Below, in pieces: positions 1,659 to 47,548 of a DNA stretch of 48,642 nt. The translations under genes were made by a program, and so were the position numbers. How positions within the stretch are numbered: the first letter of the stretch is position 1; every line of letters begins with the position of its first letter. The DNA lies in the NCBI GenBank assembly GCA_018985235.1, contig JADGIG010000016.1:1-48642 (forward strand). The letters run 5' to 3'. The stretch comes from Sanchytrium tribonematis. Taxonomy: Eukaryota. Under the pieces are notes generated by a model, which was not told the DNA's origin, searched no databases, and saw only the letters and a program-made list of their open reading frames with translations.

Positions 1659-3693
1659 ATGTTAAAAGAAAGACTGGAAAAGTGGGAGCGATATTCCAAC
1701 CGATTTAGAGACTCAGTTTCTGAAAGAAAGGCAGATAGTATCAAGGTCACCTTACCTGACGGCAAGATCTTGGACGGCTTGTCTTGGAAGACAACTCCTT
1801 ATGAAATCGCCAAAGGAATCTCCAATAGTTTGGCTAATAAGGTGGTTGTGGCGAAATTAGACAAGAGTGAATTATGGGATCTTCATAGACCATTGGAAAG
1901 AAATTGCGCTTTGGAATTACTTGATTTTAGTACTTCTGAAGGAAAGCAAGTCTTTTGGCATAGCTCTGCGCATGTATTAGGTGAAAGTATGGAGCAAAAA
2001 ATGAAAGCACTTCTTGGGTTTGGGCCACCTCTAGAGGATGGGGGCTTTTTTTATGAAGCAACCTTATTTAACCAAGAAACAACTCAATATGATCGTGTAA
2101 TTTCTCCACAGGATTTTAAAGAACTAGAAGCTCAAATGTCAGAAATTTGCAAGGAAAAGCAACCTTTTGAGCGCTTGGTTCTTACTAAAGCGGAGCTCTT
2201 GGACCTTTTCTACTACAACAAGTACAAGGTTGAATTGATAGAGTCGAAAATACCAGAGGAAGGAAGTACCGTATATAGATGTGGTGATTTGATCGATTTA
2301 TGCAAAGGGCCGCATATACCAGACACTGGGTATATTAAAGCACTAATGTTGACCAAAAATTCAGCTGCATACTGGCTTGGTAAGAAAGAAAATGATACTC
2401 TTCAAAGAATTTATGGTATATCTTTTCCCAGTGCTAAGGAGCTGAAATTGCATAAAAAATTTCTGGAAGAAGCTGCCAAGAGGGATCATCGTAAATTGGG
2501 TAAAGAAATGGAGCTTGTCATGTTCAATGAGTATTCACCGGGTTCTGCATTTTTCTTACCGCATGGAACGCGAGTTTACAACAAACTGGTTGACTTTATT
2601 AAGCTGCAATATCGTGAACGAGGATTTGAAGAGGTCGTTACTCCAAATGTTTACAACACAAAACTTTGGGAAACATCTGGTCACTGGCAGAATTACCAAG
2701 AAAATATGTTCTCTTTTGATGTAGAGAAGGAAAAATTTGCTCTGAAGCCAATGAATTGTCCAGGTCATTGTTTAATGTTCAAATATAGAGATCGAAGCTA
2801 CAGAGAGTTGCCGCTTCGACTTGCAGACTTCGGCGTATTGCACCGAAACGAATATAGTGGTGCCTTATCGGGCTTGACTAGAGTCAGAAGATTTCAACAA
2901 GATGATGCGCATATTTTTTGCACAGTTGCACAGATTAAGCAAGAAATGATAGGCTGCTTAGAGTTTTTGCAAAAGGTGTATGGTATATTTGGTTTCACTT
3001 TCGAGTTAAAACTTTCGACCAGGCCCGAAAAGTATCTTGGAGAGATTGAAACTTGGAATGAGGCGGAAAATCTATTGAAGACAGCTTTAGATGAGTTTGG
3101 AAAAACATGGACATTGAATGAAGGGGATGGTGCATTTTACGGGCCTAAAATTGATATTACAGTCCGAGACGCCCTCCAAAGAGCTCACCAATGCGCAACA
3201 ATACAATTAGACTTTCAACTGCCTCAAAGGTTTGGTTTGGAATACCGTAGCGAGAATGGAATGGATCGTCCGGTGATGATTCATCGAGCCATACTTGGTA
3301 GCGTTGAGAGAATGTTTGCAATTTTATTAGAGCACTTTGGTGGCAAATGGTAGATTTAATTAATTCAGGCCTCTTTGGTTGTCTCCACGGCAAATTTTAT
3401 TTATTCCGGTTGCTAAAAAGTACAACGAATATGCAGAAGAGCTAAGTAAGCGACTCATTAAAGCCGGGTATTTTTCTGAAGTTGATAGCTCCGACTTGAC
3501 ATTGAATAAGAAAATAAGAAATGGACAGCTATTACAGTATAATTTTATCTTAGTTGTAGGTGAGGAGGAAGTTGAAAAGCAAGCGGTAAACGTTAGATCT
3601 CGCGATGATGAGTCGAAAAAGTCTAGAGGAGAAACGGTCTCTTTCGATAACTTCGTAGAGTCTTTGACCCATGCAATGAAAAACTATGAATAA
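1659..3693 (+). CDS. THS1: Threonyl-tRNA synthetase, cytosolic type; exons 1659-3349 and 3369-3693
   Basis: TGS domain, [31 protein letters not shown] and [11 protein letters not shown] motifs; splicing restores [12 protein letters not shown] and joins the anticodon-binding domain. Confidence 0.97.
3350..3368 (+). other. 19-nt spliceosomal intron (ThrRS)
   Basis: GTAGATTTAATTAATTCAG; contains an in-frame TAG; removal restores [11 protein letters not shown]. Confidence 0.93.
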
Positions 3694-3759
3694 AAAAGTA
3701 ATTTTAAAATTTAATTGATTGGTGCGACTTTTATTTGAATCAAGCGGGGACATTTTGGA

Positions 3760-4554
3760 ATGCAATTGTTACTACATGGTCTTCAGCTTCCGATTTCTCC
3801 AGTCCATAAGAATCATCCTGGCTATTACAAATCTTACATATTTACTGGAGATCCATGCACAACAACAGTACCAATCCAACCAAGTGTTTTGGTATTTGAT
3901 ACTTTCAATTGCACCGAATCAAATCTATTTGAACATATTTCCAGCTTAAATATTGTCGGCACAATCAGTAATATAACAGAGGTACCAGAACATTTAAATT
4001 TTTACTTTATGAGCTCTGATGATATACAGCAAGTTTTGGAGGTTGTAAATCAATATTCTGAAATGTCTAGATATCCTATTATCGCAATAACTGAGCCAAA
4101 CCATCTGTGGCAATTGATACTAATTATCCTGCTCATATTGCTGGGTATAAGCTGTATTTTAAGTGGGATTCTACACTGGTATCTCTATACTCCTGAAGAG
4201 CCGCAAGTCAGAATGCTTACAGATTTTCAATTTAACAGCTTTCACAGGATTGACAAAACTACTTATGCCCTCAGCCATGACGATAAAAGCGTGGAAGAAA
4301 ATTTATGCCCAATTTGTTTAGATTATTTAAATATTGAAATTATGACTCAGTTGCCTTGCTACCACTACTATCACTCAGAGTGTATTCAATATTGGTTGAC
4401 AAAGAAATCTTCTTTATGTCCTGTTTGTAAACATGACTGCTTGGACGATGTGAGCGAAGATAAAGGTTTTTTTAGACGCATTTATGAAAAGTGGATGGCA
4501 TGGAGGTTACCCACCGAAGATGAGGATGAAATTGAGCCTTTGCTAAATGCTTAA
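3760..4554 (+). CDS. Transmembrane RING-H2 E3 ubiquitin ligase (RNF13/RMR-like)
   Basis: Hydrophobic TM (LWQLILIILLILLGISCILSGIL) followed by CPICLD...LPCYHYYHSECIQYWL...CPVCK. Confidence 0.85.
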   Translation: MQLLLHGLQLPISPVHKNHPGYYKSYIFTGDPCTTTVPIQPSVLVFDTFNCTESNLFEHISSLNIVGTISNITEVPEHLNFYFMSSDDIQQVLEVVNQYSEMSRYPIIAITEPNHLWQLILIILLILLGISCILSGILHWYLYTPEEPQVRMLTDFQFNSFHRIDKTTYALSHDDKSVEENLCPICLDYLNIEIMTQLPCYHYYHSECIQYWLTKKSSLCPVCKHDCLDDVSEDKGFFRRIYEKWMAWRLPTEDEDEIEPLLNA

Positions 4555-4971
4555 AATACTACAATAAAATTATTTACTCAACATTTTTACAATTCTGACA
4601 TACTTTTTGACCTATGAAGCATACATTTTGGGGTAACCTCGTCGTGGACCGGATTAGGTGCTCTCGTTATAGGACTTCCGACTACTGTGTGATCGACAGA
4701 GTTCAGTCTATTAATTAGTATGGGTTTCGGGGAAATTACTTTTTCGGAAGAAAGCATTACTTCAATTTGCAACAAGGGGCAAGTAGAAGACATCCTAAAA
4801 CGCTCAAAATCGCCATGATATCAATCCTACTGACATCCCAGAACATCGTACTAAAATTCAAAGATTGAAAAAAATTGCATATCTTTCGCTAATCCAATTG
4901 ATAAATTGAGGTTTCCTAGATGTACTATACTTTCTGCTTCATATATCACTTATTTATTCAAATATTGAAGT

Positions 4972-9991: not shown

Positions 9992-11042
9992 TTACTGCAG
10001 TCGATTTATTATTGCGCTTGTAAACTCTGTTGTAGTGGACTTACCGCCTAAATCACCAGTTAGTATTTTCTTATCAGCAATAGTATTCATAACAGCTTGC
10101 TCGACATTGTCGGCATAACTATCTAATTTCATGTGTCTCAACATCATAACTGCAGACAGCAATAAGGCTGTTGGATTCGCTTTGTTTTTAGACGCAATAT
10201 CCGGAGCTGTGCCTAAATAAACGTAGTATACCATGCACACTTTCAAAAATTGAAGCAGAGGTGCCAATATTTCCAGAAGGAGTCAGACCTAGACCTCCAA
10301 TTAATCCGGCGCATAAGTCAGATACAATATCACCATAAAGATTCGGCATTACCATAACTCGATCGGAAAAGTATTCAGGATTTGAGACAATTTGAAGTGC
10401 AGCTCTATCAATTAGCATACTTTCTAGTTGAATAGAAGGATATTTTTTGGAGATTTCCTCGCAAGATTCTAAAAACAAACCATCGCACAATTTCATAATA
10501 TTGGCTTTATGTACTACACAAACTTTGGGGCGTCCCATTTTCTTTGCGTACTCAAAGGCGTAAATTGCAACATTTTCGCTTGCTTGTCTTGTAATTAGTT
10601 TGATACTTTGAACCACACCTGGCACCACCTCATGTTCAATACCAGAGTATTCTCCTTCTGTATTTTCTCGAATCAAAACAGAATTGACATTTTTAAACTT
10701 TGTGGGATAGCCAGGAATAGAAACACACGGACGTACATTGGCGTAAAGGTCAAATGTTTTTCTAAGCAGTAAATTTAAACTCATATGTCCTTTTCCAACT
10801 GGAGTCTCTAATGGTCCTTTTAATGCAACCTTATTTTCATTGATTGATTTAACAGCTACTGGTGGAATTTCAGGTTTTCCAGTACTGGCATTAAATTGAG
10901 GTTCAATCTTCACTCTTTCCCATTCAATGGGAATTTGAGCAGCCTTAAAAATTTCAACTACGCTTGTGGATATTTCCGGACCAATACCATGTCCAGGAAT
11001 CAAGGTAACTTTGTGCATTCTACGTGAGATTTGCTTCAACAT
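9992..11042 (-). CDS. IDH2: NAD-dependent isocitrate dehydrogenase, catalytic subunit; exons 11042-10232 and 10212-9992
   Basis: [16 protein letters not shown] with the catalytic Asp pair; splicing restores FESVHGTAPDIA. Confidence 0.93.
10213..10231 (-). other. 19-nt spliceosomal intron (IDH)
   Basis: GTATACTACGTTTATTTAG on the minus strand; restores VHG-TAPD. Confidence 0.93.
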
Positions 11043-15467: not shown

Positions 15468-16395
15468 CTATATGTGAGACTCATAAATTGTGATTATTCC
15501 AAAAAATATAAACACTAAGCCTCCAACTATTGAAACTAAATTAGTTTTGATTACTAGTTTTAGCTGATATTCTTTGCGCTACAGCATTTCCAAAGGCAAT
15601 AGCAAGTATTGTACAGAGAGCGTGTCCCAAAATAGAGCCTAACACAACAGGGAATAACCCACCACTTGCGCCAAGGGCAATAGTTGATAGCTGGCTTCGG
15701 TCGCCCCACTCTGCTAGAAAAATCATGGTAAATGATTGTATCAATATTGGCGGAATACCACATATTATCAAAAATTTTGATCTTCCAGAAGGATGTAGTT
15801 TACTCTCACCAGAATCCAAGTTATCTTCGTCGAGTTCTTCTTTTGCTTCCTCGTATTCTGCTTTGATCTTATCTGAGCCCCTCTCGTTAATCATCAAGAT
15901 ACCAAATATTATCAATACGACACCGGCTATTATTGCAACAATCTGAGTATGAATTAAGTTGGGAACTAAATGACCCAAAAAGGCAGAAATCAATGTCATT
16001 AATGTCATAGCCAACATATTCGCTGTAACTATAATCCACTTCGGATGCCTCATACCCAAAATTGCACACAAAAAGAAAGTCTTGTCTCCAATCTCACTCA
16101 AAAAAACACTTCCTAGCGATATCCATACGAATTTCATATTATAAAAATTGGGAAGAGATTGTATTTCTTCTGCTGCTTCCTCCAAGATTTCATTATTTTC
16201 TTTTAGAGAATCTTGCTTATTTGCAATATCAAAATTTTTGATTATAATTGCGAGGAGTTTCTTTTGCTCTTGATCCAACTTTATATAAAATTCTTCTAAG
16301 TCTTTCCTTGTCCAGCTGGGTATACCAATTTTCTTACTCTCGGTGCCTGATAAACTTGTAAGAAGTATAAAATGGAAAAAAATATTCAGTTTCAT
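15468..16395 (-). CDS. GDT1: GDT1/TMEM165 (UPF0016) Ca2+/Mn2+ transporter; exons 16395-15555 and 15535-15468
   Basis: Two E-x-G-D-(K/R) motifs (SEIGDKT, AEWGDRSQ); splicing adds the missing last TM ISIVGGLVFIFFGII. Confidence 0.93.
15536..15554 (-). other. 19-nt spliceosomal intron (GDT1)
   Basis: GTAATCAAAACTAATTTAG on the minus strand. Confidence 0.9.
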
Positions 16396-20650: not shown

Positions 20651-22745
20651 ATGGGAGCGCCAAGTTCGCAATGGATTTTGTTGATCCTGACGATGATTTG
20701 GATTTGCGCATTTTCTTCCCGATTATTTTCAGTAGTGCGATTTGAAAGCATTATTCACGAGTTTGATCCTTGGTTCAACTATAGAAGCACAATCAAGCTT
20801 GTACAAGATGGGTTTTATAATTTTCTTAATTGGTTTGATGAGCGAAGTTGGTATCCACTCGGAAGAGTTGTTGGAGGCACAGTGTATCCAGGAATCATGT
20901 TCACCTCTGGTATTTTGCACTATTTGCTGAATTTTATTCTGCATGTTCCAATAGATATTCGTGAAATTTGCGTTTTTCTTGCACCACTTTTTTCTGGTCT
21001 AACTTCTTTGGCGGTTTTTTTACTGACTAAAGAACTCAAAGATACAACAGCAGGCCTTTTAGCAGCAGTCTTTATTGGTATTGCTCCAGGATATATATCT
21101 AGAAGTGTAGCTGGCTCCTATGATAATGAAGCAATTGCTATATTTTTATTGATGTGGACTTTTTATCTTTGGATCAAAAGCATCAAAACTGGAAGCCCAT
21201 TTTTGGCTATGTGCACTAGCTTGTCATATTTTTACATGGTATCTGCCTGGGGCGGGTATGTTTTTATAACTAATATGATCCCGCTGCACGTTTTCATACT
21301 TTTAATCATGGGAAGATTTAGCACCAAACTATATAAAGTTTTCTGCACGTATTACGTTATAGGTTTGATTGCAAGTATGCAAATTCCGTTTGTTGGATTC
21401 ATTCCAGTTATTTCTAATGAACATATGGCACCCCTAGGTGTTTTCGGTTTGATACAACTTCTAGGATTTATAGAATTTTTAAAAAATCATTTAGGAGAGC
21501 GCACTTATAAACATGTATCTCGATTTATTGTTGTTGGTGTATTTTGCGCAGGTGTCTCTGGTTTAATTTTGCTGACATTGAGTGGCAAAATCGCGCCTTG
21601 GACCGGCCGATTTTATTCGCTTTTTGATACTGAATATGCAAAAAAGCATATCCCCATTATAGCTTCTGTATCAGAACACCAGCCGCCGGCATGGGGATCT
21701 TTTTTCTTTGACTTGCATTTTCTCATAGCTCTTTTTCCAGCGGGTCTCTTTTGGATGTTTCGAAATCCAATTAAAAACGAGCATGTTTTTATAATTGTTT
21801 ATTCGATATTTGGTACCTACTTCTCTGCAATAATGATTCGGCTAATGTTAACTCTTACCCCAATTGTTTGTGTTTGTGCAGCAATAGCTCTCAGTGCTTT
21901 GCTTCAAAAGGTAAGAAAACTTCCTACACAATATGCAGATGTAAAATTTATTGCTTATCCAGCAATATTTGTTTTATTATGTCACTTTGTTTTACATTGT
22001 ACTTGGGTCACATCAAATGCATATAGTTCTCCATCAGTTGTACTGGCTTCATATAATCAGAAAGGAGAGCAAGTTATAATTGGTAATCGACACTTATTTA
22101 GATGATTTCAGAGAAGCCTATTATTGGCTTAACCAAAATACTCACGAAGATGATAAAATTGCTGCATGGTGGGATTATGGGTATCAAATCACTGGATTTT
22201 CAAATCGAACTGTTCTTGTAGACAACAACACTTGGAATAATTCCCATATCGCGACCGTTGGCAGAGCCATGGCCAGTTCAGAATCAGATTCATACCCAAT
22301 TTTACATAAGCACGATGTTGAATACTTATTGGTAATTTTTGGGGGATTGATCGGATATTCAGGTGACGATATTAATAAGTTTTTGTGGATGATACGAATT
22401 GGCGAAGGAGTATACCCAGAGCATATTCACGAAAGAGATTTTTTTACTCGCCGTGGTGAATATAGAATAGACGATGATGCCACAAAAACTATGAAAAAGT
22501 CTATAATGTTCAAAATGTCTTACTACAGATATAACGATATTATGGGTGGAAAAGGAATGGACTATGTAAGAAGAACGCCTACCGTCAGTAAGCCCATTAG
22601 ATTGTCTACTATTGAAGAAGCTTTTACCAGTGAAAATTGGATAGTTCGAATTTACAAAGTCAAAAAGCCCGACTTTTTAGGCAGAAAATTACAAGAGGCG
22701 CAAGCTTTTGACGTCGGACGAAGAAGAACAAATACGAAGAAATAA
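20651..22745 (+). CDS. STT3: Oligosaccharyltransferase catalytic subunit STT3; exons 20651-22082 and 22102-22745
   Basis: [27 protein letters not shown] and DINKFLWM motifs; splicing restores [12 protein letters not shown]. Confidence 0.97.
22083..22101 (+). other. 19-nt spliceosomal intron (STT3)
   Basis: GTAATCGACACTTATTTAG. Confidence 0.93.
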
Positions 22746-22768: not shown

Positions 22769-23165
22769 ATGAATTCACAACCTCCACAAAATAGAAAACA
22801 TCAATGGTGCCTGGACACGCTTCAAACTTGTAGGGATATTTGTCATCCAACTACAGATATTTCGTGTAACGACGGTACATTAAATTATACCTGTCCTTGT
22901 GATATCAGTAAGCAGCCAAAATCTATTGAGATATATTCTTGCGGTTATGCTGTTGATGTATGCAAATACAAATGTCCAACGTATGCCATATTTATTTAGC
23001 AATGATACAGTGTGTTCAAACTACTGCGAAAGCCAAAGATGTTTACCACAAATTACTATAGTTCAAAAGCCAAATAATAACTCCGCTATACAGTTTGACG
23101 CAGGAGTTGCGGAGATGTCAGTATCTGTTATTTTTTATGTTTTGATGATAATTTTATTAAAATAA
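22769..23165 (+). CDS. Small Cys-rich protein with C-terminal hydrophobic anchor; exons 22769-22980 and 23000-23165
   Basis: Spliced 125 aa protein with 12 Cys (WC..TC.DIC...C..GTLNYTCPC...C...C...C...C...C...C) and tail SVSVIFYVLMIILLK. Confidence 0.75.
22981..22999 (+). other. 19-nt spliceosomal intron (Cys-rich protein)
   Basis: GTATGCCATATTTATTTAG; joins two overlapping short ORFs and continues the Cys spacing. Confidence 0.85.
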
Positions 23166-29300: not shown

Positions 29301-31138
29301 CTGTGAAAAATCACTCAATTCTTACGCAAAGGAGCTGTTTACGAGCCAGTCATTACAGTCACAAAAACTAATTAGAGCATTTTATAATTGCAATGATTTT
29401 ATACCCATTTTAGACATATTGTTCAAATACATGATTCTAATTAACAGATTAGATCTTATTGCTGAACTGTTGCACATTCTTAAAGACTTAAACTATAGAA
29501 TATGTGACGATGAGTTAAATTTGATATTCGATTATTTGCTCGGGACAAACGAATTTCGACTTTTGTACAATTTGTATCCTTATTCTAAAATGTTTTTGAG
29601 ACTTGTGCACCAAAATAGTGAAAAGTCTCTATCAGAAATCAAATACATTCTCAGCCGAAATGATTGCAAAGATTTGATAAATGACAACATGGATTTGATA
29701 AATACCATTAATAATGGAGAACTTCTAAATATGATACAATCACATATCAAATCTAAACCTGACAAGAACATAGCCGAAACATTAGATGTGGCTGATTTCT
29801 CCAACGAAGCGCTGGAAAGTGTTGATTCAAGATATAAAATTGAGAATTTCAGTGACAAATTTAGTCACAAGTACCCTACAATAAGAAAACAGCCTTCTTT
29901 TTTTGCTACGGAACAGATCATATCTCAGCTAAATCTGTGTGATCCAACAAAATCCTACTACGCTCTCAAAGAATTTGAAAAATGTTTGCTCAGTGATTCT
30001 ATCTCTACAGCTCAATATTTAGACTCTTTGATAAAAGTTATGGTAGATAATTTTAATAAGCATTTAAATTTAAGTTTACCGGCAAATACTAGGCTGATTA
30101 AGGAGTTGTGTGCTGTATTTTTATCTTTATCAACTGACAGTAATTTGATAAGCGCTTTAAGCGACTCCTCATTAGAAGAATTCTTTCGCTGCTTGCTGTT
30201 TAATCTCAAGTCTGTTAAAGACTCTAAAATTCAAAGTTTTATTAATTCTGTTATTGTCAAATCGTTGTACAACTTAAATAGAAATCGCGCATTTCAGTAA
30301 TTTAAATTAACATAGATTGCTTTTTAAGCTGTTGACAGACACTTGTAATTTGACAAATGTGGAAGAATTTGACCAAAAATGCACTCTAATTTCAAAATGT
30401 ATGTTGAAGCTGACAAAAGATGTACAAATTAAACATGCTGATCGCACCAATTACTTAGATTTAAAAACTTTGCTGTATGTAATGCATGAGTTTTTTGGGT
30501 TTCTACAATCTGTAGGAATGGATCAAAAAAACAATGATAATTCTGAAGTCCCTTTGCGTTCAGTGAAAACGGTGCTTGTTTATTTATGTAAAACCATTGG
30601 TGATGAATTTCAAATCTTTCTCGATAGATGTTTGGACGAATTGAATGATGACATCTTTCAATTTTTCAAATCCTACACGGATAAGGGTGAAAACCAAGGA
30701 AATGATAGTAATTCCTCGAGTGGCCAGAACAACCATAAGATTGATCTTGAAAGTATTTTTTTTGAAATTATTAACCAAGGAACGGTTTCTACTATACTCG
30801 AAAAGGTAGTTGGCCTGAAAGGCCAATATTCCATATCAGATAAGCGACTTAAAGATATTTTAGATAATATTGAAATCGATCCTACAACCAAAAATTTTCT
30901 TTTCAAGCATTTGAATTTATACGAAAATGAACTTCAAATCCCGGAATTTGCAATGTTGGATTCTCATACCAATGTTTTCAACAGACCACTTAATTCAAGG
31001 TTAAAACTTCTTCAAAACAAACTGAATAATCTGCGAGATTCAACGAATGCGCTCGATGCAGAAATTGACGAGGAGCCCGCATCTATCAGCTCTATCCAAA
31101 ATCTAGCAGATCGTTTAAAAAAAATCCAAAGCCAATAA
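26317..31138 (+). CDS. XMAP215/Dis1/Stu2-family microtubule polymerase (multiple TOG domains, divergent); exons 26317-30296 and 30316-31138
   Basis: Repeated TOG starts (HWKIRKE, KWKIKFEAL, DWKTRLE, QWKLRKEAL), DKNVNV and DSNKNL, C-terminal KCMLKLTK and PLRSVKTVL. Confidence 0.85.
30297..30315 (+). other. 19-nt spliceosomal intron (XMAP215)
   Basis: GTAATTTAAATTAACATAG; joins ORF 26317-30300 in frame to ORF 30317-31138. Confidence 0.88.
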
Positions 31139-31150: not shown

Positions 31151-32430
31151 ATGGCACCATTTTTATATCTAATCGTTATTGCTTCAAACGTCTCGTCTGT
31201 TTATTATGATTACAGCGCGACAGCAATTATAGATGACATCATCGCGTCTCAGACTTCAAATTCAAGTTTAAATCCAGAGAGTTTAAAATACTCTACAGCA
31301 TCTACGTCTACCATTTCAAAAGTTTTTGTCGATTTATCGCCTCCTACCATCCCGGATAATCCCTCGTTAATGGACCAGCTAGAAGCTAACCAAACTTGTT
31401 CTCTGACAAGGGTAGACCTGAACAGATGCTTAACAGATAAAATTAGCTTGTTTATAAATACGAGGTTTGAATGGTATTTTATGTTGGTGTTGAATATTTG
31501 TTTATTGATTTTGGGAATGGTCTTGTTTGCTAAAATCAAATTGAAGGAACTTGTAATGAAGAAATCAAAAAAAAGAACGGCAGGAGCCTGGGCAAAAGTT
31601 AGCTTCATTTTTATTTTGCCAATTAGTCTTTTCAATTTGTTGATCTTATTAACTCCCAAATTTCCCGCTGCGTGTGCATATTTGCCTTCTATAATGGGAT
31701 TTGCTCTTATATGTTTATCAGCATTGCACCTGATGTCTTTGATAAGAATTATCGTGCGACTAGTAGTTATCAGACCTCAGCTTGTAAGTACTAGTATGAA
31801 AGCGACGCCAGGAAATCCAGATGAAGATTACGTTGAGCGAGCCCCCGAAAAATCTAAAGGGGCATTGTTAATAGATATATTGTGTCAGGTTGGTGTCATT
31901 GCAGCAATTCTGGTAGATTTTGCGATTTCAGGTTCACTTTTGGCAACCAATCCAATGACTATTGGGCAACTTCGATCTAGCAATGGAATTTCAGACTTAT
32001 TGACTTGTAGACCAGCTTATCAAGACGAATTTGTCAAGTCATTCTTCATCCCAAAGATATTAGTATTCACCGCTATCGTGGCGATTTCGGTATTTTTAAC
32101 AAATAATCCGCAATATTTTGCCAGCGCAAAACTCGACGACGTACCAGAGGGTAAAGAAGACACTGCTTTAGCTCTGAAGTCAATGTAGAATATTATTCAT
32201 ATAGTGCTTTTTATATATTGTTTGTTCTTCTTGCAGTGATGTCTTCTTTAGCAATTCATTTTTTGTACCAATACGACGATACTCATCCAATCTACTCCAT
32301 GTTGCTAAAGGAAAATTTACAGTTGGAACTGTTTTGCTCATTCATAACAATGCTTATCATGACTTTAATCTACATTCATAACTTAGAATACAAGAATAGA
32401 ATTAAAGAAGTGAAATTATTTACCTACTAA
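31151..32430 (+). CDS. Seven-transmembrane protein, class C (7tm_3/GABA-B-like) GPCR-like; exons 31151-32184 and 32205-32430
   Basis: Signal-like N-terminus; five TMs in exon 1 and two more after splicing; Cys at the top of TM3 (CAYLPSIMGFAL...IRI) and a Cys in the putative ECL2 (LTCRP). Confidence 0.55.
32185..32204 (+). other. 20-nt spliceosomal intron (7TM protein)
   Basis: GTAGAATATTATTCATATAG; removes the stop and joins in frame to ORF 32218-32430. Confidence 0.85.
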
Positions 32431-34989: not shown

Positions 34990-36481
34990 TCAGCCAATTA
35001 GTAGTTCTAGTATTGATATAAAAAATTCGTTACCGAAAGAAACTAATTCTTCCCTGGAAATGCGATAAAGTTCTGGATTATTATTGATTGCATACTTTCT
35101 GTAATATAAAAAACCAGCCATAGGTTGGCCGAAAACGCAAAACACACACCAAAATATCATATTTCCCAGAGTGTTAATACCTTTAAAACCCGGTCTATAA
35201 AATGTTCTATACCACTTGTCAAACCTTTCCGTTAATATGATTAACGGAACCTGGCCAAAAATAGCCCAAAAAGCCCACATGTTATAAATGCCGGTAGGTA
35301 CAGCGACAATCCATTCGTGAAATATAGCCGAAATCAAAAATACAAGTAGTCCTGCTTGAAACTTATTGATCTGAACTGTCTCGCCTTTTTTATTCTTAGA
35401 TTGCAACAAGGGAACAAAAACATGTCTCTTTAACCACTGGTGTACGGGTTGATTCCTATATTAATAATAAAAACCAAAGTCTCCAGTATGTTGCCAACTC
35501 ACTAGAATTCCACCATTCTCTATAAAATAGACGGTCTCCAAACTGAGTAATCTCAGCCCAAAAATACAAATAAGCGTGAAAAAATCCATAAAACATGGCT
35601 AGCCAAATTAAAGATACAGATAAGGAAAGTTTTAATATGCGTTCCAACAACTGAAAAGAAGTCATTTCTCTAGATTTTATCATTTGAATAGAATTTTCAA
35701 GAGTTGGCTGGGCATATTGCTGGGCCAAAATTAGAATAAAACTCATACTCAAGCAAAATTCAGTGAGATATCTAAAGGCTTTCAAAAAACTTCGCGATGG
35801 AGCTTTGGGGTATTCATACTGAAAGCAAAGAGTAGGAATCAGCAAAAATATGCTGTAATCTTTCAGCGTGACCTGCCTATGTTCATTTAATGTAACAAAT
35901 GCAAAACTAAAAAGCTTTAACACCAAAATGGTAGCAAATAATAATGCTCCAATTCCTATTGCAGGATTCTTACAATAACGTCCTACAATGTAGGTTTGAT
36001 CCACTAATAATGATAGGGCATTGACTGAGTGCCACCTCATGGAATTTCGAAAGAAAAACTGATTTTTCCGACCTGCTTCAATAATGAATCCTGAAAAATA
36101 ATGAAATATATGAAAGGCAATGCAGCAGACTAGAAATTGAGCGTCATATAAGCTTAAAGTAGGAAGGTGGACCAAAATTCCGTACTTGGACATATTTTCC
36201 ATTACTAACCGAAAGACCATCGCTAAAGAAAGAGATCCCAATAAATTTACGAAACCAGAATAGTCACTATTAGCAAATTTGTCTAATGGAGCGAGCCTTA
36301 TTTGAGTGTGTACCAAACCGGTGTGAGGTAAAAAGACAGGTTTTTCAACGATAGCCACAGACTTTTCAGTTAAATCAGACTGACTTCTAACAATAGTAGC
36401 ATCACTTCCTTCATCACTAGTAGAAGTAGGAATTCGTTTCCTAACATATTTTCGTTTAATTACTTTTTGTGTCTGTGTCAT
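34990..36481 (-). CDS. MBOAT diacylglycerol/sterol O-acyltransferase (DGAT1-type); exons 36481-35475 and 35455-34990
   Basis: PTLCFQ..YP, FGDRLFYREWWNS and SAIFHE; splicing restores YWRLWNQPVHQWLKRHVF. Confidence 0.92.
35456..35474 (-). other. 19-nt spliceosomal intron (DGAT1)
   Basis: GTTTTTATTATTAATATAG on the minus strand. Confidence 0.92.
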
Positions 36482-37494: not shown

Positions 37495-37509
37495 GGGGAA
37501 AATTTGGGT

Positions 37510-39145
37510 TTATTCACTAAAATTGTATCTCCAAAGTCTAGCCCGACAATCTCCGCTAGCAGTTGCAAACACTTTTTCAGTTGGAGACACAGCGACACAA
37601 ATAACTGAATTTTTGTGACCTAAATGAAAACAAAAAACCTTGAAGAATAAATTCTGATTCACCAGTATGAGGATTCCAATATTGCACAGTTCTATCTTTG
37701 CTAGCACTCAGTATTCTGTGTCCATCGTTGGTAAAAGAGACACTTAAAACAAAATCTTTATGACCAGTTAAGGTTTTGAGACATTCTGCTTTTCGAGTAG
37801 GGTAATCTCCCAGCCTCCAATACTTAAGTGTCTTATCTAAGGATCCACTTGCTAAATATTGACCATCAGGTGATATAGCTATGCTATAGACGCTGTCTGT
37901 GTGACCGACTAGAGTATCAAGCAGTTCACCGGTAGCAACATCCCAAATTCTTACAGTTCTATCTAAAGAACCCGCAGCAACGATCTTTTGGGAAGGGTGC
38001 CAGCAAACACCGGTCACACCACTATCTTTAGCATTCATGTCAGGGTTCTCAAACGTCTTTATACATTCACCAGAACTTAGCAGCCATATCTTGCAGGTTT
38101 TATCCCCACTACCTGATAATATATATTGCCCATCAGGTGAGAACTCTAAGCTATAAATATCTGACTTGTGACCTTCTAATCGCATTGCCACCTCTGAGTT
38201 TTGAATATTCCATATGCGAACTACCCTATCTTCAGCTCCAGTTGCCAAATAAACCGAATCAGGTGAAAACGACAATGCTCGTACATATAGAGCAGTTTGG
38301 CTCATGGTGTCACTAAGTTGAGTCAGCTCTCTCCCAGTATTAGTATTAAACACTTGTGCTGTAGGATTGCAGCCAGTAGCAAACAGTTGTCCATCTCTAC
38401 TAAATCGAACGCAGCAAACTACTGTTGAATGACCAAATGCATTCACGTGTTGTAAAGTGAGTTTCTTCTGCAGTCTTGGATGTTGAGCTGCTTCCCAGTC
38501 ATCTCCCGAAATTTTGAATTTCGGTGGGATACTGCTAATGTCACATGCATTATAGAAATGGAGACAGACAGCCGGACTGATCGTGTCATTTTGAGGGTGT
38601 TGTTGATGGTGCTGTTGCTGCTGTTGTTGCTGTTGCTGTTGCTGGTGTTGTAATTGCAACTGTTGCTGATGTTGCTGTTGCTGATGCTGTTGGTGCTGCA
38701 CTTGCTGATGATGATGTAAATGTGACTGTTGGCTTGGTATTCCAATTTTTTTGTAGCTGGATGGTGCCAAATTACTAGTGTTAAGAGCTCCACCAGCTTG
38801 CTGCAAAGAAGCACTTGTCAATTGTTGAAGACCAGCGGTGGCATGTAATGGAAGTTGAGTCGAAATCTGTGGTAATTGCTGCGGCAAAGTAACTTGAGGC
38901 TGCATTTGCGTTTGAGAAAGAGACTGTAAACCGCCTTTTTTCTTTAACTCCTCCTCATAAAATTGCTTCATTCGTAAATGCTGTTTTTCTAATTCAAGTA
39001 TTGTTGCATGGTAATGTTGCAAGTCTTGCAAATGCATTTGCAATTTTCCGTTTACATCTGCATCTCCACTATTTCGAATAAGCATATCACATTCTTGTCT
39101 CATAGCATCAAGTAAATCATAAACTCGCCTGTGGGATGGATGCAT
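37510..39145 (-). CDS. TUP1: General transcriptional corepressor Tup1; exons 39145-37639 and 37619-37510
   Basis: Tup_N ([12 protein letters not shown]...MKQFYEEE), polyQ linker, WD40 repeats ([22 protein letters not shown]); splicing restores [12 protein letters not shown]...[12 protein letters not shown]. Confidence 0.95.
37620..37638 (-). other. 19-nt spliceosomal intron (TUP1)
   Basis: GTTTTTTGTTTTCATTTAG on the minus strand. Confidence 0.93.
38598..38731 (-). repeat. Imperfect CAG/CAA/CAY trinucleotide tract encoding a Gln/His-rich linker of Tup1
   Basis: Plus strand shows runs of tgc/tgt/tgg triplets; protein [45 protein letters not shown]. Confidence 0.9.
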
Positions 39146-39491: not shown

Positions 39492-41319
39492 TTACAACTG
39501 AGAAGAATCGAATCCCAACGAATGAAGAAAAATATTAACATTCGCAACAGCCCTTGAGCTGGCAACTTTGTTAAAATCCTTTGCAGGAGTATAAGTATAT
39601 CTCAAACTCTGACCAACAGTAAAAGATGCATCTTTCTCCGCAGACGCATTCCACATTACTCTATCGCGAACTTCCGAAACAATTTCTGTCTGTATTTCGG
39701 CATCAGCACTAATGACCATAGCGGCAAGGAATTGCCATATGAAGCTATCATTTGTTAATTTCAAAACATAATCTTCACAAGAAAGCGAATTGGTAAAATG
39801 GGATAATATTTTTGGATCAGGAAAATACACATACTGAGGTGGGAACGCAATAGCAACATACAATTTAATTTGCTGGTACATTTCATTAAACAATAAGTCA
39901 AACTTTTGATTGTTCTTCTCTGAGGTTTTTAAGACCTCAGCACGGCTTAAAATTGCGGTTAAGATTAAAATTCCAGAACTGGTTCGAACTACCGCTGACA
40001 AAGTTAGTCCATTTAGCAAAATTTCTAAACACTCAGTTAAATCTTCCCATTCCATATCCATAATAGTATTTTGAATGACATTAAAAGCAGTAGACTGCCA
40101 AATATCAAAATTTTGAAGATATTCTAACACAGTATTGAAATGTGATTCCAAATAATTCGGCAAATTCTCGATTTTGCTAGCTAGCCCTGAGAGATATTCA
40201 TTTATCGCATGTAGGGAATTTTGGACTTGATCCCACGTAACAATCAAAGCTGAGAATTGCAAGGACTTCAGCAAAGATTTTATGATCAAGATACAGTGCG
40301 AGTCAGAGAGATATCTAAATGTCCTGGGCATGACTTTCATCATCTTTCTAAAATTTAATAGTTGCGAAAATTGAACCGAACTAAATAAGAAGCATATACC
40401 TGTTCAATATACATTCGATTGTATCAGACAATTTTTCGGAGTAAAAAAACACATTCTTTTCAATATCATTTGATGTAAGCTGTGTTTTTGAATGAGAGAC
40501 GTCATGATTTTGCAATCTTTTAGCTTTTCTCTTCCAAGTTTCCAACTCAATGACAGATTCGTAAATATCCTCAATATACTTGAGCGGCAACTTACCGTCT
40601 AAGACGCCTTTATTCTCATAAGCGTCAATATTGACAATTGGAATGTCAATGGCTTGCCTTGGTTTTTTACTAGTGGCAGAGCTTACTTTACCTAATGCAC
40701 CTTCTATGACAAAGCTTATACCTATATTTGCTTTTTTCTTTTCAACAATTTTTTCCAAAGTTTGATTAAATGTTTTCTTTTTCTTTTTGGAGCCTTTGAC
40801 TAATAACTGAAGATAATCTCCACTAGATTGTCTGCTTTTATCACCCAGTTCCTTTCTAACCATAAGGTATATGTTGTTATAAAAGTCGTCATCATATTCA
40901 TCAGTTATCGCTATCTGTGACATAGCCATTTTAAGAATGAAATTCTGGTCATTAGTGTTCATAACAAATCCTTGCTTTTCGGATTGCTTAAAAGATTTAG
41001 CTTTCACCTGGATGATGTCTTTCTCAATGTCTTCAACTGTTGTGGGTGATTTCAGGTTCTTCGCAAATTCTTGTTTTACTAATAATTGATATTCGATCAT
41101 TTCCAAAGTGAGAGGTTCGTCAATGTTGTGCTCAAATTCGTCACTCACTGACTCTTCGCTAATGCTAGTTTTCAAATTCGATTTCTTTGACATTGTGACG
41201 CTGATTTCACGGAGTAAAATCATCGGACTATAATCGCTGATACTTATGGAATTTGTCAATGATTTTTTGAAAATTAGATAGGAAAAAAATTGGAAATTTT
41301 TCTCATGTTGCTGAATCAT
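39492..41319 (-). CDS. PAT1: mRNA decay factor Pat1; exons 41319-40400 and 40380-39492
   Basis: MNTNDQNFILKMAMSQI..DEYDDDFYN, EGALGKVS...KKPRQAID, LWQFLA-like IWQFLAAM, NVNIFLHSLG; splicing gives FSQLLNFRKMMKVMPRTFRYL. Confidence 0.85.
40381..40399 (-). other. 19-nt spliceosomal intron (PAT1)
   Basis: GTATATGCTTCTTATTTAG on the minus strand. Confidence 0.88.
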
Positions 41320-41326
41320 TTCGTAT

Positions 41327-44300
41327 TTATTTTGAATCTAACTTCAATAGCATTAATTTGAAAGTTTCCCCTAAAATTTCTTGATCTTCTTCTATATCAA
41401 CATTCATTTTCTCACTTATTATGAGCGGTACAGATTTAATAGACTGTTCAATAATATTCTTTTCTAAGTCAAGAACAGAGAGCAAATTTTGACAAGACTC
41501 TTGCATGATAAAATATCTTACATTATCAGTTGGAACCATATTTGCTTTTTTTCTTAACCTTTGGACACGATTAATCAATTCACGAGCAAAACCTTTTCTA
41601 TAGAGTTCATCATCTATCTCACAATCTAACAAAACAATAACTTGACCGTCCATGTTTGCGTTATATTTTGAAAGCTCCGGGGTTGATTCAAAGAATCGCT
41701 GAACAACAATCTCGCTATCATCAAGCACATGACCATGTATAGTGATTTTTTTGCTCGATAAAAAGGACTTAATTTCGCTAGTAGACAAAGTTTGAAGAGC
41801 TTTTTTGACTTTAGGCATGTCTTTCTTCAATCGTTGCCCCAAGATCTTGAAATCAGCCTGTAACTTATACTTTACAGAATACTTTTCTTCATCTGCAGTC
41901 AAAAGAATTTCCATAACATTTAATTCCTAAATTAATTTAAAATACCTCTTTGATGTAAACCGATAACAACTCAATATCATTCAAGTAGGATTGATCACCA
42001 TGAATAACGATCAGCTTTCTGAGAGGGGTCTTGAGTGTGAGGCCTTGCTTTTCCCTAATAAGCCGCACCAATTCAATGACAGACTGCATTCTTGAGATAC
42101 CTTGCTGAATGCTCTCGTCTTGATACTTCAATTCAGCATTTGGGTACAGCAAAAAATGAATAGATTGACTTTCATCATCATATTTACCTTCTCCGCAATT
42201 TTTTGAAATATCGGAATCCTTTATAAAGGGCTTCAATTGCAAAAATATGTTTTCTGCCATAAAAGGAGTGAACGGTGCCATCAATCTGGAAATCGTCAAA
42301 ATCACCTCAAACAGTGTATTTAGTGAATGAAGAGTATCTTCTTCGCCAAATTCCCCCTTTAATCTTTTTCGATTAAAACGAATATACCAATTAGTCAATT
42401 GGTCAATAAATAACAGCAGTCTCCCAACCACTGTATAGAGTCTGTAATTGGACATTTCCTCTCTAACAAATGTTATTAGACTTTGTTCTGAAGCCAAAAT
42501 CCAGCGGTCCATAAGATTTTCACTGCTTAAATAAGTGCTATCATAACTATATTCAATGTTGAACTGAGACGTTAAAAGATCGGTTTGTAGCTTGAAAAAC
42601 TTAAACGAATTATACCAAGGTAAAAACACTTTGGATAATAGTTCTTTGACACCCTCCTCCTTAAATTTTAAGGAATCCGCACGAACTACTGGAGAATTAA
42701 TGAGATAGAGTCTCAAAGCGTCAGCGCCATATAAATTTATCACTTTTGAGGGCTCCGGATAATTTTTTAGTCTTTTCGACATCTTTTTGCCATCTTCTGC
42801 GAGAACCAAACCATAAACAATCTGATTCTTAGCAGGTGGAGTATCAAATAAATGCGTACTCAAAACTAAAAGAGTGTAGAACCAACCCCTGGTTTGATCT
42901 ATTCCTTCGGCTATAAATTCAGCAGGAAACGTCGCTTCCATCTTATCTTTATTCTCAAACGGATAGTGTTTTTGAGCGTACGGCATGCTTCCACTTTCAA
43001 ACCAACAGTCGAAAACCTCGTCTATTCGTCTCAGTTTTCCTTTTCCCTGTCTGGAAGGAATCTCCAGATGATCTATGAAGTGTCGATGAATATCAGTTAT
43101 TTCAGATTTTCCAGTTAATTCCTCTAGTTCTTCTACACTTCCTACGCAAATCATTTCTTCCAAATCATCACTAACCCAAACCGGGATCGGGGTACCCCAA
43201 AATCGGTTTCGACTAACGTTCCAATCTATTGCATTTGAAAGCCAGTTCTGAAACCTTTTCTCTTGAACAAAATCCGGGACCCATTTGGATTTTCTGTTAT
43301 TACGAAGCAAGTCATCTCTAACTTTTTCTACCTTTACAAACCATGAGGGAAAAGCTTTGTAAATCAAAGGAGTTTCCGATCTCCAGCAGAAAGGATAACT
43401 ATGAGTTAATGTGCCTTGTTTGATAAGCCTATTTTCAGCTTTTATTTTTCTGCAAATCAATTTGTCAGCTTCCTTTATATAAATACCTTTGAAATCTACC
43501 ACAGCATCCATGAATTTACCTTCCTCATCTACAGGACAAGGAAGTGAGGAAATGTCTGTTCCAATTAAACCGTATTTGAGGCAAACTCTGTGGTCATCCT
43601 CACCAAATCCAGGAGCCTGATGGACAATGCCTGTACCCGAATCGTTGGTAACATACTCATCACACAAAACTCGAAATCCCTCAAGCTTGGAAAAGTAATC
43701 AAACATTGGCTTATACTTTTGATTTTCCAAATCCTTACCAGAGAAAGTCTCCAAAATAGTAAAATTTGCTTTCTTTGGATCCTTGTACAATATATCCAAT
43801 CTTTCCTTGCCCAAAATTAGAGGAATTGATGACAGAGACTCATCAAAAATTTTGATGTATTCATATCGTGGATGAACACATAAGGCCAAATTGGAAGGCA
43901 AGGTCCAAGGAGTTGTAGTCCAAGCCAAAAAAGCAGCAGAATTGTCCAGTAATGGAAAAGAAACTACAACAGCAGGATCAACTACGTCTTTGTAATTTTG
44001 ACCAGCTTCAAAATTGCTGATCGGCGTATGGCAACCTGTCGAATAAGGCATAACTCTACAACCTCTGTACACAAGATCCTTTGCCCAGAGACTCTTAAAT
44101 GCCCACCATACAGACTCCATAAAACTCATATTCATAGTTTTGTAATCATTTTCAAAATCAATCCAACGACCAACACGAGTAACTGTGATTTCCCATTCCT
44201 TTGAGTATTTCATCACAAGATCTCTACAATGCTCGTTGTATTTTCCTATACCCATATCAAGGACATCTTGTCTACCCTTAATATTTAACTTCTTATCAAT

Positions 44301-44970: not shown

Positions 44971-45098
44971 TAAATAAAATATTTTGTGGATTCTTATTCT
45001 ACAATTTACCCAAGTTAGAATTGATCGAAAGCTTGCATGAATTTATTGTTTAGAGTCGTTGGCAGAAAAATAAAAAATCACAATCAAGGAGATATAAA

Positions 45099-45566: not shown

Positions 45567-45622
45567 GGTAAAAGTAGTCAATTGTAATTGATCGATTTAT
45601 TAACTAAATAATTGAAATAAAC

Positions 45623-45862
45623 TTACTGAAAAACTATTGTCCTACCTCGTTTTCTACAACTTGCAGATTCATCTCTTGGAAGCTCAATCCATCTATGATT
45701 GAAGCAAGTTATCCAGTGTTTTTCAAGGCAATATCCCACACCATTTTCACAATAATCGCTCAAATTTATTTCTTCTTTACGTTGGGTTTTTGGAGGGTAA
45801 ATGTCCCCTGGTTGAAGGAGCACTCTAACTACTTCTGAACAAACAAATGAAAACAAAATCAT
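45623..45862 (-). CDS. Small putatively secreted Cys/Trp protein (CBM19-like spacing)
   Basis: Short hydrophobic N-terminus MILFSFVCS; CENGVGYC...WITCFNHRW...SC motif. Confidence 0.5.
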   Translation of the reverse strand: MILFSFVCSEVVRVLLQPGDIYPPKTQRKEEINLSDYCENGVGYCLEKHWITCFNHRWIELPRDESASCRKRGRTIVFQ

Positions 45863-45931
45863 GTTTTGAGTGAGATACGAGAAATAAATGAAGCGGAGTA
45901 GCCAATCATATCATTCTTTTAATTAAATTTT

Positions 45932-47548
45932 TTATTTGCACAAGGCGGATTCATAAATTTTCAGCTCAATCAAAGCATCTTCCATGTCTTCTCTCATTCT
46001 ATCTTCGAACGAATCTTTAAGAGCATTGACAATCAATGCAACTCTTTCTAGCATTTCCAATCTATCAGAGACAGAAGCAGCAGATTTCGCTTCAAACGCT
46101 AAGACATCCAAATCAAACTTTTGATGTATTTTCTCCAATTTATCCGCTACCGGAATGTCTTCGTTTGTCATCGACTCTACTAAATTGACCAGTTGATTAT
46201 ACTTTTTTAATAATATTGATCCATTTTCCTTCGTTTGTTCAAAGCTAGCAAGTTTACCTTTTAATTCGATCTTACACTTTTCAATCGCTACTAATATTTT
46301 GTCCACTGATTTTTGTTCCAAAGTAGCCACATTTAATTTGGAATCTTTAACCTTTGTTCTCAAAGAATTAATTTTAATTAGAATATCACTTTGCAATTGC
46401 GAGGAGCCATTCAAATACTTCGTCATCTCATCTTTTATCTCATCCTGTTGCCTATCAAGATCAGTTTTGCTAAAATTTCTAAAGCTTTTTGTAGTTTCAA
46501 CTATGGCATCGGCAATTTCGTCGAAACAAACAAAATATTCGTCAGGTAAGTCTTGAACATTTACCGCCTGAACTTTGGTTTTTATAACAATAAAGTCGTG
46601 CGTTGTGGGGCTTTCTCCGTCTTGTCCAAATGGTTTCCCATATATCCCTACTAATTTGGACAAGTGATCAACCGATTTTTTAAACGATTTCGTTTTAAAT
46701 AATTCTGTGTCCTGCGGTTTATATTTAAAGCATTCTTCAATATGTTTTTCCATTAAACTGTGAAGTATGTTTTTTCCTTCCTAAATTAAAATAAATTTAC
46801 AAGCATTTCACCGATTAAAGGGAAACCTTTTTCTTTGGCCAGCTGGGAGGGCGTTTGCGAAAGGCTATTAACAATCTTCGGATCTGCCCCGTGCTTTATT
46901 AGAAATCGAACAAAAGGAATTTTACCTTTTCCACTGACAGCATGTAAACTAAATTAGCAAATAATACACTGTATCTCCTTGCTCAAATTTAACATCTACA
47001 AAAGTACCGATTTTGATAACTGAGCTTCTTTTTGTTTTTGTATTGATGTCCACATTATGATCCAAATAAAGCTTTAATATATCTAATGATTTATAGCAAA
47101 CGTAATGAATAGGCAATACCCCCCAACTATTGAATTGAAATAGTAGTTGCGGTGCCCTTTCAACCACAAACTTCGCGATATGCAATCTGGGCTTACTACT
47201 GAGGCCTAGTTCATGCAAGACATTGTTTTCGTTTCTATCGACACAATCCAATCGAGCACCATATTCTAAGAGTAGTTGAAATATAGTATCATGCTCTTGC
47301 CAAATTGCGTAAAGCAAAGCCGTTCTAGATCCCTCTGTGCTTGTTGAATGATTTGGATCGGCACCCTTATCCAATAACAGCTTTACAATTCTTATATTTC
47401 CTTGTTTTGTAGCTTCCATTAATGGAAAAGTTTGATCTCCTAAAGTAATGTTAACATAACCAGGTAATTCCGATATAATTTCAGAAATCTTATTGTAGTT
47501 CTCTTCCCTGATGTATCTCATAAAATCCTCTTGACTTACCCTAGACAT
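45932..47548 (-). CDS. Ankyrin-repeat protein with C-terminal helical/coiled-coil region; exons 47548-46968, 46948-46801, 46780-45932
   Basis: Ankyrin repeats (PLMEA..GNIRIVKLLLDKGADPN); splicing restores GDTVLHAVSGKG...LIKHGADP and links to ORF 45932-46753. Confidence 0.85.
46781..46800 (-). other. 20-nt spliceosomal intron (ankyrin gene, intron 2)
   Basis: GTAAATTTATTTTAATTTAG; removal gives ...IGEML-EGKNILHSLMEKHIEE. Confidence 0.82.
46949..46967 (-). other. 19-nt spliceosomal intron (ankyrin gene, intron 1)
   Basis: GTATTATTTGCTAATTTAG; restores the ankyrin motif GDTVLH. Confidence 0.9.

What the first reader, a model, noticed from the sequence alone, without database searches (positions are those of the whole stretch)
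3350..46967. Branch point fused to the 3' splice site: invariant Y-T-N-A-Y-N-N-A-G with A at -6
Seen: in all 15 introns position -8 is T, -6 is A, and -9 and -5 are pyrimidines (e.g. TTAATTCAG, CTAATTTAG, CTTACTAAG, TTAACATAG, TTCATATAG, TTCATTTAG). The 5' site is reduced to GT(A/T) with no conserved +5 G, and there is no room for a polypyrimidine tract. Known: YTNAY is the degenerate U2 branch consensus, and a conserved A 6 nt from the 3' end is also described in Stentor's tiny introns. Inference: the lariat loop is only 14-15 nt, the 3' AG is chosen by fixed distance, and U1 pairing and U2AF65 may be reduced or dispensable, convergently with ciliates.
Basis: partly seen in the sequence, partly recalled or inferred. 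Interest (0 to 1): 0.8.

Follow-up and report, generated by a model that had tools for sequence, protein, structure and literature searches.

The report
Fungal 19-base introns, fused branch site
A third of the genes in this stretch of a sanchytrid fungus are broken by 19-20-base inserts that are likely the shortest introns yet seen in fungi, each with an A six bases from its end that likely serves as the splicing branch point, and a public protein set that ignored them holds truncated proteins.

Summary
Observation confirmed. The window belongs to a sanchytrid fungus (100/100 clade with Amoeboradix gromovi). Fourteen of 40 genes hold 15 GT-AG introns: 12 of 19 nt, 3 of 20 nt, all ending YTNAYNNAG. 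In 4 of 4 genes tested, homology alone picks the same excision. Read-through tails of relatives decode to six more introns of 19-21 nt, all with A at -6. The motif fits canonical U2 pairing, so A-6 is likely the branch point; no RNA data were available. The geometry is known: Yarrowia lipolytica and Stentor also have A at -6. Loss of U2AF65 is not supported: A. gromovi lists U2AF65, U2AF35, SF1 and U1 proteins, though not Slu7, Prp18 or Prp28. What looks new: I found no report of sanchytrid introns; 19 nt is shorter than any fungal or animal typical length I found; 10 of 10 unspliced products sit in EukProt; 13 of 15 introns lie in the 3' half of genes, opposite to the rule for intron-poor genomes. 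The scan noted similar but longer introns in Rozella and Neolecta, none in sanchytrids.

The parts
3350..3368 (+). 19-nt intron in threonyl-tRNA synthetase; putative branch A at 3363
   Evidence: Best of 370 excisions by HMM; anticodon domain in exon 2; three relatives break at the same codon
9711..9730 (+). 20-nt intron in an Ariadne-type RBR ligase; putative branch A at 9725
   Evidence: Pfam Ariadne split 8-74 / 105-151; the only GT-AG frame-restoring excision nearby
10213..10231 (-). 19-nt intron in NAD-dependent isocitrate dehydrogenase; putative branch A at 10218
   Evidence: Pfam profile 277, junction codon, 279; best of 1208 excisions
15536..15554 (-). 19-nt intron in GDT1; putative branch A at 15541
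   Evidence: Exon 1 ends at position 61 of 75 of the second GDT1 repeat; exon 2 adds 21 codons
20331..20349 (+). 19-nt intron in an Mst/Hippo-like kinase; putative branch A at 20344
   Evidence: SARAH domain in exon 2; the only frame-restoring GT/GC-AG excision nearby
22083..22101 (+). 19-nt intron in STT3; putative branch A at 22096
   Evidence: Gap-free continuity with yeast and human STT3 chains; best of 926 excisions
22981..22999 (+). 19-nt intron in a DUF7707 gene; putative branch A at 22994; the only intron with +5 G
   Evidence: Exon 1 ends at profile position 70 of 102; ORF join; weaker support
30297..30315 (+). 19-nt intron in an XMAP215/Stu2-like TOG protein; putative branch A at 30310
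   Evidence: Joins 1326 and 273 codons; lowest-G+C excision; exon 2 has no Pfam match
32185..32204 (+). 20-nt intron in an unnamed membrane-protein gene; putative branch A at 32199
   Evidence: Joins 344 and 74 codons; no Pfam match on either side; weakest support
35456..35474 (-). 19-nt intron in an MBOAT (DGAT/ARE-like) acyltransferase; putative branch A at 35461
   Evidence: Exon 2 starts at MBOAT profile position 234; ORF join
37620..37638 (-). 19-nt intron in a Tup1-like WD40 gene; putative branch A at 37625
   Evidence: Exon 2 begins at position 10 of a WD40 repeat
40381..40399 (-). 19-nt intron in PAT1; putative branch A at 40386
   Evidence: PAT1 profile split 393-599 / 635-860
41927..41945 (-). 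19-nt intron in isoleucyl-tRNA synthetase; putative branch A at 41932
   Evidence: Best of 376 excisions by HMM; DUF5915 in exon 2
46781..46800 (-). 20-nt second intron of an ankyrin-repeat gene; putative branch A at 46786
   Evidence: Joins exon 2 to a 282-codon exon; lowest-G+C excision
46949..46967 (-). 19-nt first intron of the ankyrin-repeat gene; putative branch A at 46954
   Evidence: Ankyrin repeats on both sides

Best explanation
These 19-20-nt GT-AG inserts, whose removal restores conserved proteins, are likely U2-type spliceosomal introns of a sanchytrid fungus in which the A six bases from the end likely is the branch point, so branch site and 3' AG would be read as one nine-base unit. 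Shown: the sequences, the motif, exact frame restoration, and the same geometry decoded from relatives. Inferred steps: (1) SF1 and U2AF, which the sister genus retains, mark YTNAYNNAG, with U2AF35 on the AG and U2AF65 acting as a bridge or binding the U-rich bases upstream, as there is no tract downstream. (2) U2 GUAGUA pairs with -11 to -5 and bulges A-6: the pyrimidines at -9 and -5 pair with U2's two G's and the invariant T-8 with its A. (3) The donor is the GT 14-16 nt upstream of that A, chosen mainly by distance with weak help from U1; the lariat loop is 14-16 nt. (4) After branching, the AG five bases away docks by proximity; in yeast a short branch-to-AG distance makes Slu7/Prp18 non-essential, and these two are unlisted in A. 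gromovi. Lengths of 19 and 20 are not multiples of three, so a retained intron always gives a stop or a frameshift.
For: Motif in 15/15. Homology-only choice of the excision in 4 of 4 genes; Pfam/PDB continuity. Canonical U2 GUAGUA pairs best at the -6 register: 4.8 of 6 pairs, against 4.2 for the best A in 20,000 shuffles, P=0.006; -6 is the best register in 13 of 15 introns. Of 9 read-through tails in relatives, 6 decode to AG-ending introns of 19, 20, 19, 20, 19 and 21 nt, all with A at -6 and a pyrimidine at -5. The full motif at 19-20 nt is absent from sense coding sequence (0 vs 5.1 expected, 2 of 300 codon shuffles), while other lengths are at expectation (39 vs 41); shifted-A controls are not depleted. 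Prp8, Brr2, SF3B1, Prp5, Dbr1, U2AF65, U2AF35, SF1 and U1-70K are listed in the A. gromovi supplement. Yeast exon ligation without Slu7/Prp18 at a 7-nt distance. Same geometry in Y. lipolytica and Stentor.
Against: No spliced read or lariat was seen. The organism's own snRNAs were not examined; none lies in the window. Eight of 15 introns also have A at -7, which could branch instead. One relative's intron has A, not a pyrimidine, at -9, so the motif is not invariant across the group. The depletion test is noisy: two controls were also low (GC-donor at 23-26 nt, P=0.01; antisense at 23-32 nt, 30 vs 45.7, P=0.006). Four of the six decoded relative introns assume that the stop codon is the acceptor TAG. 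Missing Slu7, Prp18 and Prp28 rest on an automatic list that annotates about half of a fragmented proteome, where one identifier also missed Brr2.
Confidence: 0.8

Rival explanations
1. The introns are real, but the conserved nine bases are an extended acceptor bound by protein (like the C. elegans TTTCAG), and branching uses a variable A, such as -7, -10 or -12.
For: A occurs at -7 in 8, -10 in 9 and -12 in 8 of 15 introns; in 2 of 15 another A pairs with U2 as well as -6 does. C. elegans has a conserved 3' end. U2AF35 is retained in A. gromovi.
Against: Only -6 has A in 15/15, and the conserved neighbours are the ones that pair with U2's G, A and G. An upstream A would shrink the loop to 8-10 nt.
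Confidence: 0.1
2. Ordinary recognition with no special fusion: tiny length and A+T richness alone push the branch site against the AG, the acceptor is the first AG after the branch, and the spliceosome is unchanged.
For: No AG lies between A-6 and the acceptor in any intron, so first-AG scanning predicts all 15 ends. U2AF, SF1 and U1 proteins are listed. This shares steps 1-3 with the best explanation.
Against: In 19-21-nt introns the A could sit 4-8 nt from the end, yet it is at -6 in 15 of 15 here and 6 of 6 in relatives while its distance from the GT varies. In myxozoan tiny introns the A's move with length.
Confidence: 0.25
3. The inserts are not introns: assembly errors, frameshifted pseudogenes or recoding sites.
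For: No RNA evidence; the public proteins stop at these sites.
Against: All 15 have GT-AG ends, two lengths and one motif, in genes such as two aminoacyl-tRNA synthetases and STT3. A re-assembly (run X1, depth 120-190, possibly the same DNA) shows no indel over the 12 of 15 introns laid. Three relatives break at the same ThrRS codon.
Confidence: 0.02
4. Non-spliceosomal excision by an endonuclease and ligase, as for the short Ire1-type HAC1/XBP1 introns (lengths near 20 nt, recalled, from no call).
For: Similar length only.
Against: GT-AG ends and a U2-pairing motif in all 15; interiors hold only 8 G in 228 bases, leaving no conserved hairpins; a debranching enzyme and core spliceosome are listed.
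Confidence: 0.01

Closest known systems
Yarrowia lipolytica introns (Irimia and Roy 2008, PMC2483917; Mekouar et al. 2010, PMC2911113; passages read)
   Same: Fungus; branch motif fused to the acceptor with two bases before the AG, which puts the branch A at -6; no 3' pyrimidine tract; combined branch and 3' site recognition already proposed.
   Different: Yarrowia introns are 41-3478 nt (median 204) with a strong GTGAGT donor and CTAAC in over 92%; here 19-20 nt, donor GT(A/T), degenerate T-rich branch motif.
Stentor coeruleus 15-16-nt introns (Nuadthaisong et al. 2022, PMC9505925; passages)
   Same: Tiny, AU-rich, GUA donor, A six bases from the end; canonical U1, U2 and U6 sequences and U2AF kept.
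   Different: Ciliate; 10-11-nt loop; the paper reports no strong consensus around the A, whereas here T-8, Y-9 and Y-5 are fixed.
Mikrocytid 16-17-nt introns (Zarsky et al. 2023, PMC10245619; passages)
   Same: Parasite; two neighbouring intron lengths; conserved sequence.
   Different: Rhizarian; only 224 introns; spliceosome cut to 17-19 proteins, while the sanchytrid list looks largely complete.
Myxobolid and dicyemid short introns (PMC13644364; parts 1-2 of 3 read) and microsporidian introns of about 25 nt (PMC6349667; passages)
   Same: Parasitic opisthokonts; donor reduced to GTa and U2AF1/2 kept in myxozoans.
   Different: Shortest animal median 22 nt, with A's that move with intron length; the first-described microsporidian set is strongly 5'-biased. 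Sanchytrid introns are shorter, fixed at -6 and 3'-biased in this window.
Trichomonas vaginalis and Giardia lamblia introns (PMC2483917; passages)
   Same: Branch site at a fixed distance from the AG; no tract.
   Different: Four bases, not two, before the AG; very few introns; strong consensus.

Membership tests
U2-type spliceosomal introns | GT...AG ends | tested here: met
   15 of 15
U2-type spliceosomal introns | Removal restores a conserved reading frame exactly | tested here: met
   4 of 4 by homolog HMM; Pfam matches on both sides or one domain continuing across in most others; no exon-2 match for 15536, 22981, 30297, 32185
U2-type spliceosomal introns | Branch site able to pair with U2 GUAGUA with a bulged A | tested here: met
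   4.8 of 6 pairs at -6, P=0.006, using the canonical U2 sequence, not the organism's own
U2-type spliceosomal introns | Donor complementary to the U1 5' end | tested here: inconclusive
   4.9 vs 3.7 of 9 pairs, P=0.00025, but +5 G in 1 of 15; canonical U1 used
U2-type spliceosomal introns | Major spliceosome encoded in the lineage | tested here: met
   Listed in the A. gromovi supplement; the window's own genome is not held
U2-type spliceosomal introns | Spliced mRNA and lariat observed | not testable with these tools
   No RNA holder listed
Introns with constrained branch-AG distance (Yarrowia type) | Branch motif two bases before the AG, no 3' tract | tested here: met
   15 of 15 here and 6 of 6 decodable in relatives
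Introns with constrained branch-AG distance (Yarrowia type) | Strong 5' and branch consensus | tested here: not met
   Donor GT(A/T); branch motif degenerate and T-rich
U12-type introns | Donor RTATCCTT and branch TCCTTAAC (recalled consensus) | tested here: not met
   None of the 15 carries either
Introner elements | Families of near-identical introns | not tested
   No formal test; by eye the 15 share only the splice signals

The most novel reading that the evidence does not exclude
Sanchytrids splice the shortest introns in fungi and animals (19-21 nt, perhaps 15 nt in one relative) with a largely complete major spliceosome that has shed the parts a fused branch-AG unit and a bare GT donor make redundant (Slu7/Prp18, Prp28, U1C, Prp39), and they keep introns almost only near gene 3' ends, the reverse of other intron-poor genomes, because spliceosome recruitment leans on 3'-end processing.
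Probability: 0.2. Interest if true: 0.85.

Novelty: new variant of a known kind. Interest (0 to 1): 0.62.

Why it matters
It adds an independent origin of sub-20-nt introns, in fungi, below the lengths I found for microsporidia (about 25 nt) and myxozoans (median 22 nt), and joins two features so far seen apart: Yarrowia's fused branch-acceptor and ciliate-size introns. A 14-15-nt lariat in a fungal spliceosome can be compared residue by residue with yeast structures, which makes the minimum-intron question testable. Practically, 14 of 40 genes here are split; the sanchytrid proteomes described in PMC8371127 were predicted as plain ORFs on genomic contigs, and 10 of 10 unspliced products tested are in EukProt, so gene counts, domain losses and 'lineage-specific' proteins for this phylum need re-checking. 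The 3' bias, if genome-wide, runs against the 5' bias of intron-poor genomes.

Tried and rejected
No whole genome is held, so no genome-wide logo or snRNA search. No RNA holder listed; this says nothing on expression. The metagenome scan for a sanchytrid ThrRS motif returned one unrelated, G+C-rich, intronless locus, L001, which I dropped; the viral scan found nothing. Rfam found no RNA in the window. A first loose ORF-joining scan gave 898 candidates and was useless. Motif matches of 18 or 21 nt inside ORFs (3268, 10403, 33044, 46894, 32007) were rejected: by my reading four lie in conserved coding motifs and one is G+C-rich. Six-frame reading of 29 gaps and gene ends showed no further break. 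Three relative tails were set aside: P0003 and P0124 are too short, and P0122 fits 15 nt or 20 nt. The IleRS search of representatives showed no sanchytrid among its top 150 rows (best identity 59%) and served only for the HMM test. No A. gromovi STT3 was among the 120 listed hits. U12-type, Ire1-type and artefact readings were rejected as above. Supplements I could not see (MOESM1 and MOESM4 of PMC8371127, and the cut second sheet of MOESM3) may bear on the spliceosome inventory and on whether the authors noticed introns.
Full report
Organism. The window is 35.6% G+C and about 92% coding, with 40 genes and a median of 34 nt between coding regions. The three closest ThrRS relatives are 84-85% identical and the next hits 57-66%; one of the three is EukProt Amoeboradix gromovi. 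A tree of 25 selected ThrRS rows puts the window with A. gromovi and two unnamed ENA proteins at 100/100 on a long stem. It is therefore a sanchytrid other than A. gromovi. No whole genome was available.

The introns. ORF-joining and motif scans gave 15 introns in 14 genes, 0.33 per kb of coding sequence. Twelve are 19 nt and three 20 nt. All end YTNAYNNAG; T is also common at -4 (12) and -3 (13); donors are GTA (13) or GTT (2); interiors hold 8 G in 228 bases. My set was partly found with the motif, so I tested it without. Homolog HMMs scored every frame-restoring deletion of 1-60 nt with any ends: the 19-nt excision came first in ThrRS, IDH, STT3 and IleRS, 4 of 4 genes for which I had homologs. 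IDH runs Pfam position 277, junction codon, 279; STT3 continues without a gap against yeast and human chains. A lowest-G+C rule picks the same intron in 13 of 15. Three introns (22981, 30297, 32185) rest mainly on ORF joining. A re-assembly of run X1, possibly the same DNA and so not independent, shows no indel over 12 of the 15. No RNA was available, so splicing itself is inferred.

Relatives. Proteins called on relatives' contigs without intron models read into their introns. Of nine such tails, six decode to AG-ending introns: P0004 19 nt, P0002 20 nt, P0131 19 nt, P0123 20 nt, P0259 19 nt, P0371 21 nt. All six have A at -6 and a pyrimidine at -5; -8 is forced to T in four and compatible in two; -9 is a pyrimidine in five and A in P0002. 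For P0002 and P0259 the tail runs on into exon 2 and, decoded by hand, gives the expected next residues; for the other four I assume the stop is the acceptor TAG. P0003 and P0124 are uninformative, and P0122 fits 15 or 20 nt. So the A is anchored to the 3' end while its distance from the GT varies from 14 to 16. Relatives carry IDH introns at three other positions and an STT3 intron at one other, so positions turn over within the group.

Branch point. With canonical U2 GUAGUA, pairing peaks when -6 is bulged: 4.8 of 6 pairs, against 4.2 for the best A in shuffled interiors (P=0.006). The fixed positions are those facing U2's G, A and G, and C-to-T drift keeps G-U pairs. The full motif at 19-20 nt never occurs in sense coding sequence (0 vs 5.1; other lengths 39 vs 41), although 279 plain GT..AG stretches of that length do; the shorter TNAY core is halved at 17-22 nt (16 vs 33, 0 of 500 shuffles) but not at 13-16 or 23-32 nt. 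This suggests motif plus length is enough to trigger splicing, but two controls were also low, so it is only suggestive.

Spliceosome. I searched the eggNOG table of Galindo et al. 2021 (PMC8371127, supplement file 4, cut at 4 million characters: the A. gromovi sheet appears whole, the second species only begins). KOG and KEGG identifiers were recalled by me; rows were displayed, counts only in 80, 81 and 83. Listed: U2AF65 (E 1.3e-33), U2AF35, SF1/BBP, U1-70K, U1A/U2B'', Luc7, Prp40, Prp8, Isy1, Prp16/22, Prp17, and by count Brr2, Snu114, Prp6, Prp3, Prp31, Cdc5, Prp5, SF3B1, Cwc25, Yju2, Dbr1, Upf1. Not listed under two or more identifiers each: Slu7, Prp18, Prp28, U1C, Prp39, SF3B6; under one: Smu1, RBM17. 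Loss of U2AF65 is thus not supported. The gaps fit the anatomy: Slu7/Prp18 are non-essential at short branch-AG distance (PMC3683925, passages) and Prp28 displaces U1 (PMC10158995, passages). But the table covers about half of the proteins, small or split genes are missed, and one identifier missed Brr2. U1 complementarity is low yet above background.

Position. Thirteen of 15 introns lie in the 3' half of the coding sequence (mean 0.73, KS p=0.007), all within 1 kb of the stop (mean 456 vs 886 nt, p=0.0014). Intron-poor genomes are normally 5'-biased (PMC532390, passages). Short first exons and UTR introns are harder to see; the motif scan and gap reading found none. This is one window and needs a genome-wide test.

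Comparison and novelty. The geometry is published for Y. lipolytica and Stentor; shorter introns exist in Stentor (15-16 nt) and mikrocytids (16-17 nt). Among opisthokonts I found a shortest animal median of 22 nt and about 25 nt for microsporidia, about 30 nt for two Rozella introns; PMC8476143 (passages) gave no shorter fungal value. Searches for sanchytrid plus intron and for ultrashort fungal introns showed no report; the two sanchytrid papers use the word once each, in a reference title; the other hits were seen as listings only. The library lacks most subscription papers. Earlier scan notes cover Rozella and Neolecta, not sanchytrids; I did not check them. Ten of 10 unspliced read-through products tested are in EukProt letter for letter, and the A. 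gromovi ThrRS ends at the same codon.

Verdict. A new variant of a known kind: tiny U2-type introns with a fused branch-acceptor, apparently undescribed in this phylum. Interest 0.62.

Noticed in passing
window, all 15 introns: Strong 3' positional bias: 13 of 15 in the 3' half and all within 1 kb of the stop codon, including single introns in 4.8-kb and 3.2-kb genes.
   Followed up: partly
window 6150-6184 +: A 35-nt stretch with a canonical-looking fungal donor, CTAAT and CAG inside the ABCG transporter ORF, which stays open through it. By a rough hand estimate two or three such matches are expected by chance; if real it would be a second intron class.
   Followed up: no
P0122, P0123, P0124, P0131, P0259, P0371: Sanchytrid relatives have IDH and STT3 introns at positions where the window has none, implying recent loss or gain; the P0122 tail fits a 15-nt intron as well as a 20-nt one.
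   Followed up: partly
PMC8371127 supplement file 4, rows 1135-1136: A. gromovi SF1/BBP is split over two adjacent ORFs of one contig, as expected from an unannotated tiny intron.
   Followed up: no
whole window: Extreme compaction: median 34 nt between coding regions, eight gaps of 7 nt or less counting one of zero but not two overlaps of 23 and 37 nt that depend on start choice (seven gaps of 0-7 nt), so transcripts may overlap.
   Followed up: no
window 202-753 -; 19206-20553 +; 32600-33712 +: An IFT46-like ORF and a severin/gelsolin-like gene (both named from recall) and a Hippo/Mst-like kinase with a SARAH domain persist in this reduced fungus.
   Followed up: no
window 1-3000 and 8943-8996: Run X1 contigs differ from the window by 20 substitutions in the first 3 kb and show a two-allele bubble near 8.9 kb, but only 1 difference in 28601-48600, suggesting patchy heterozygosity or mixed haplotypes.
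   Followed up: no
15 introns: TAG is the acceptor in 13 of 15, and 8 of 15 introns are phase 2, 4 phase 1 and 3 phase 0; Yarrowia has phase 2 as its rarest class.
   Followed up: no
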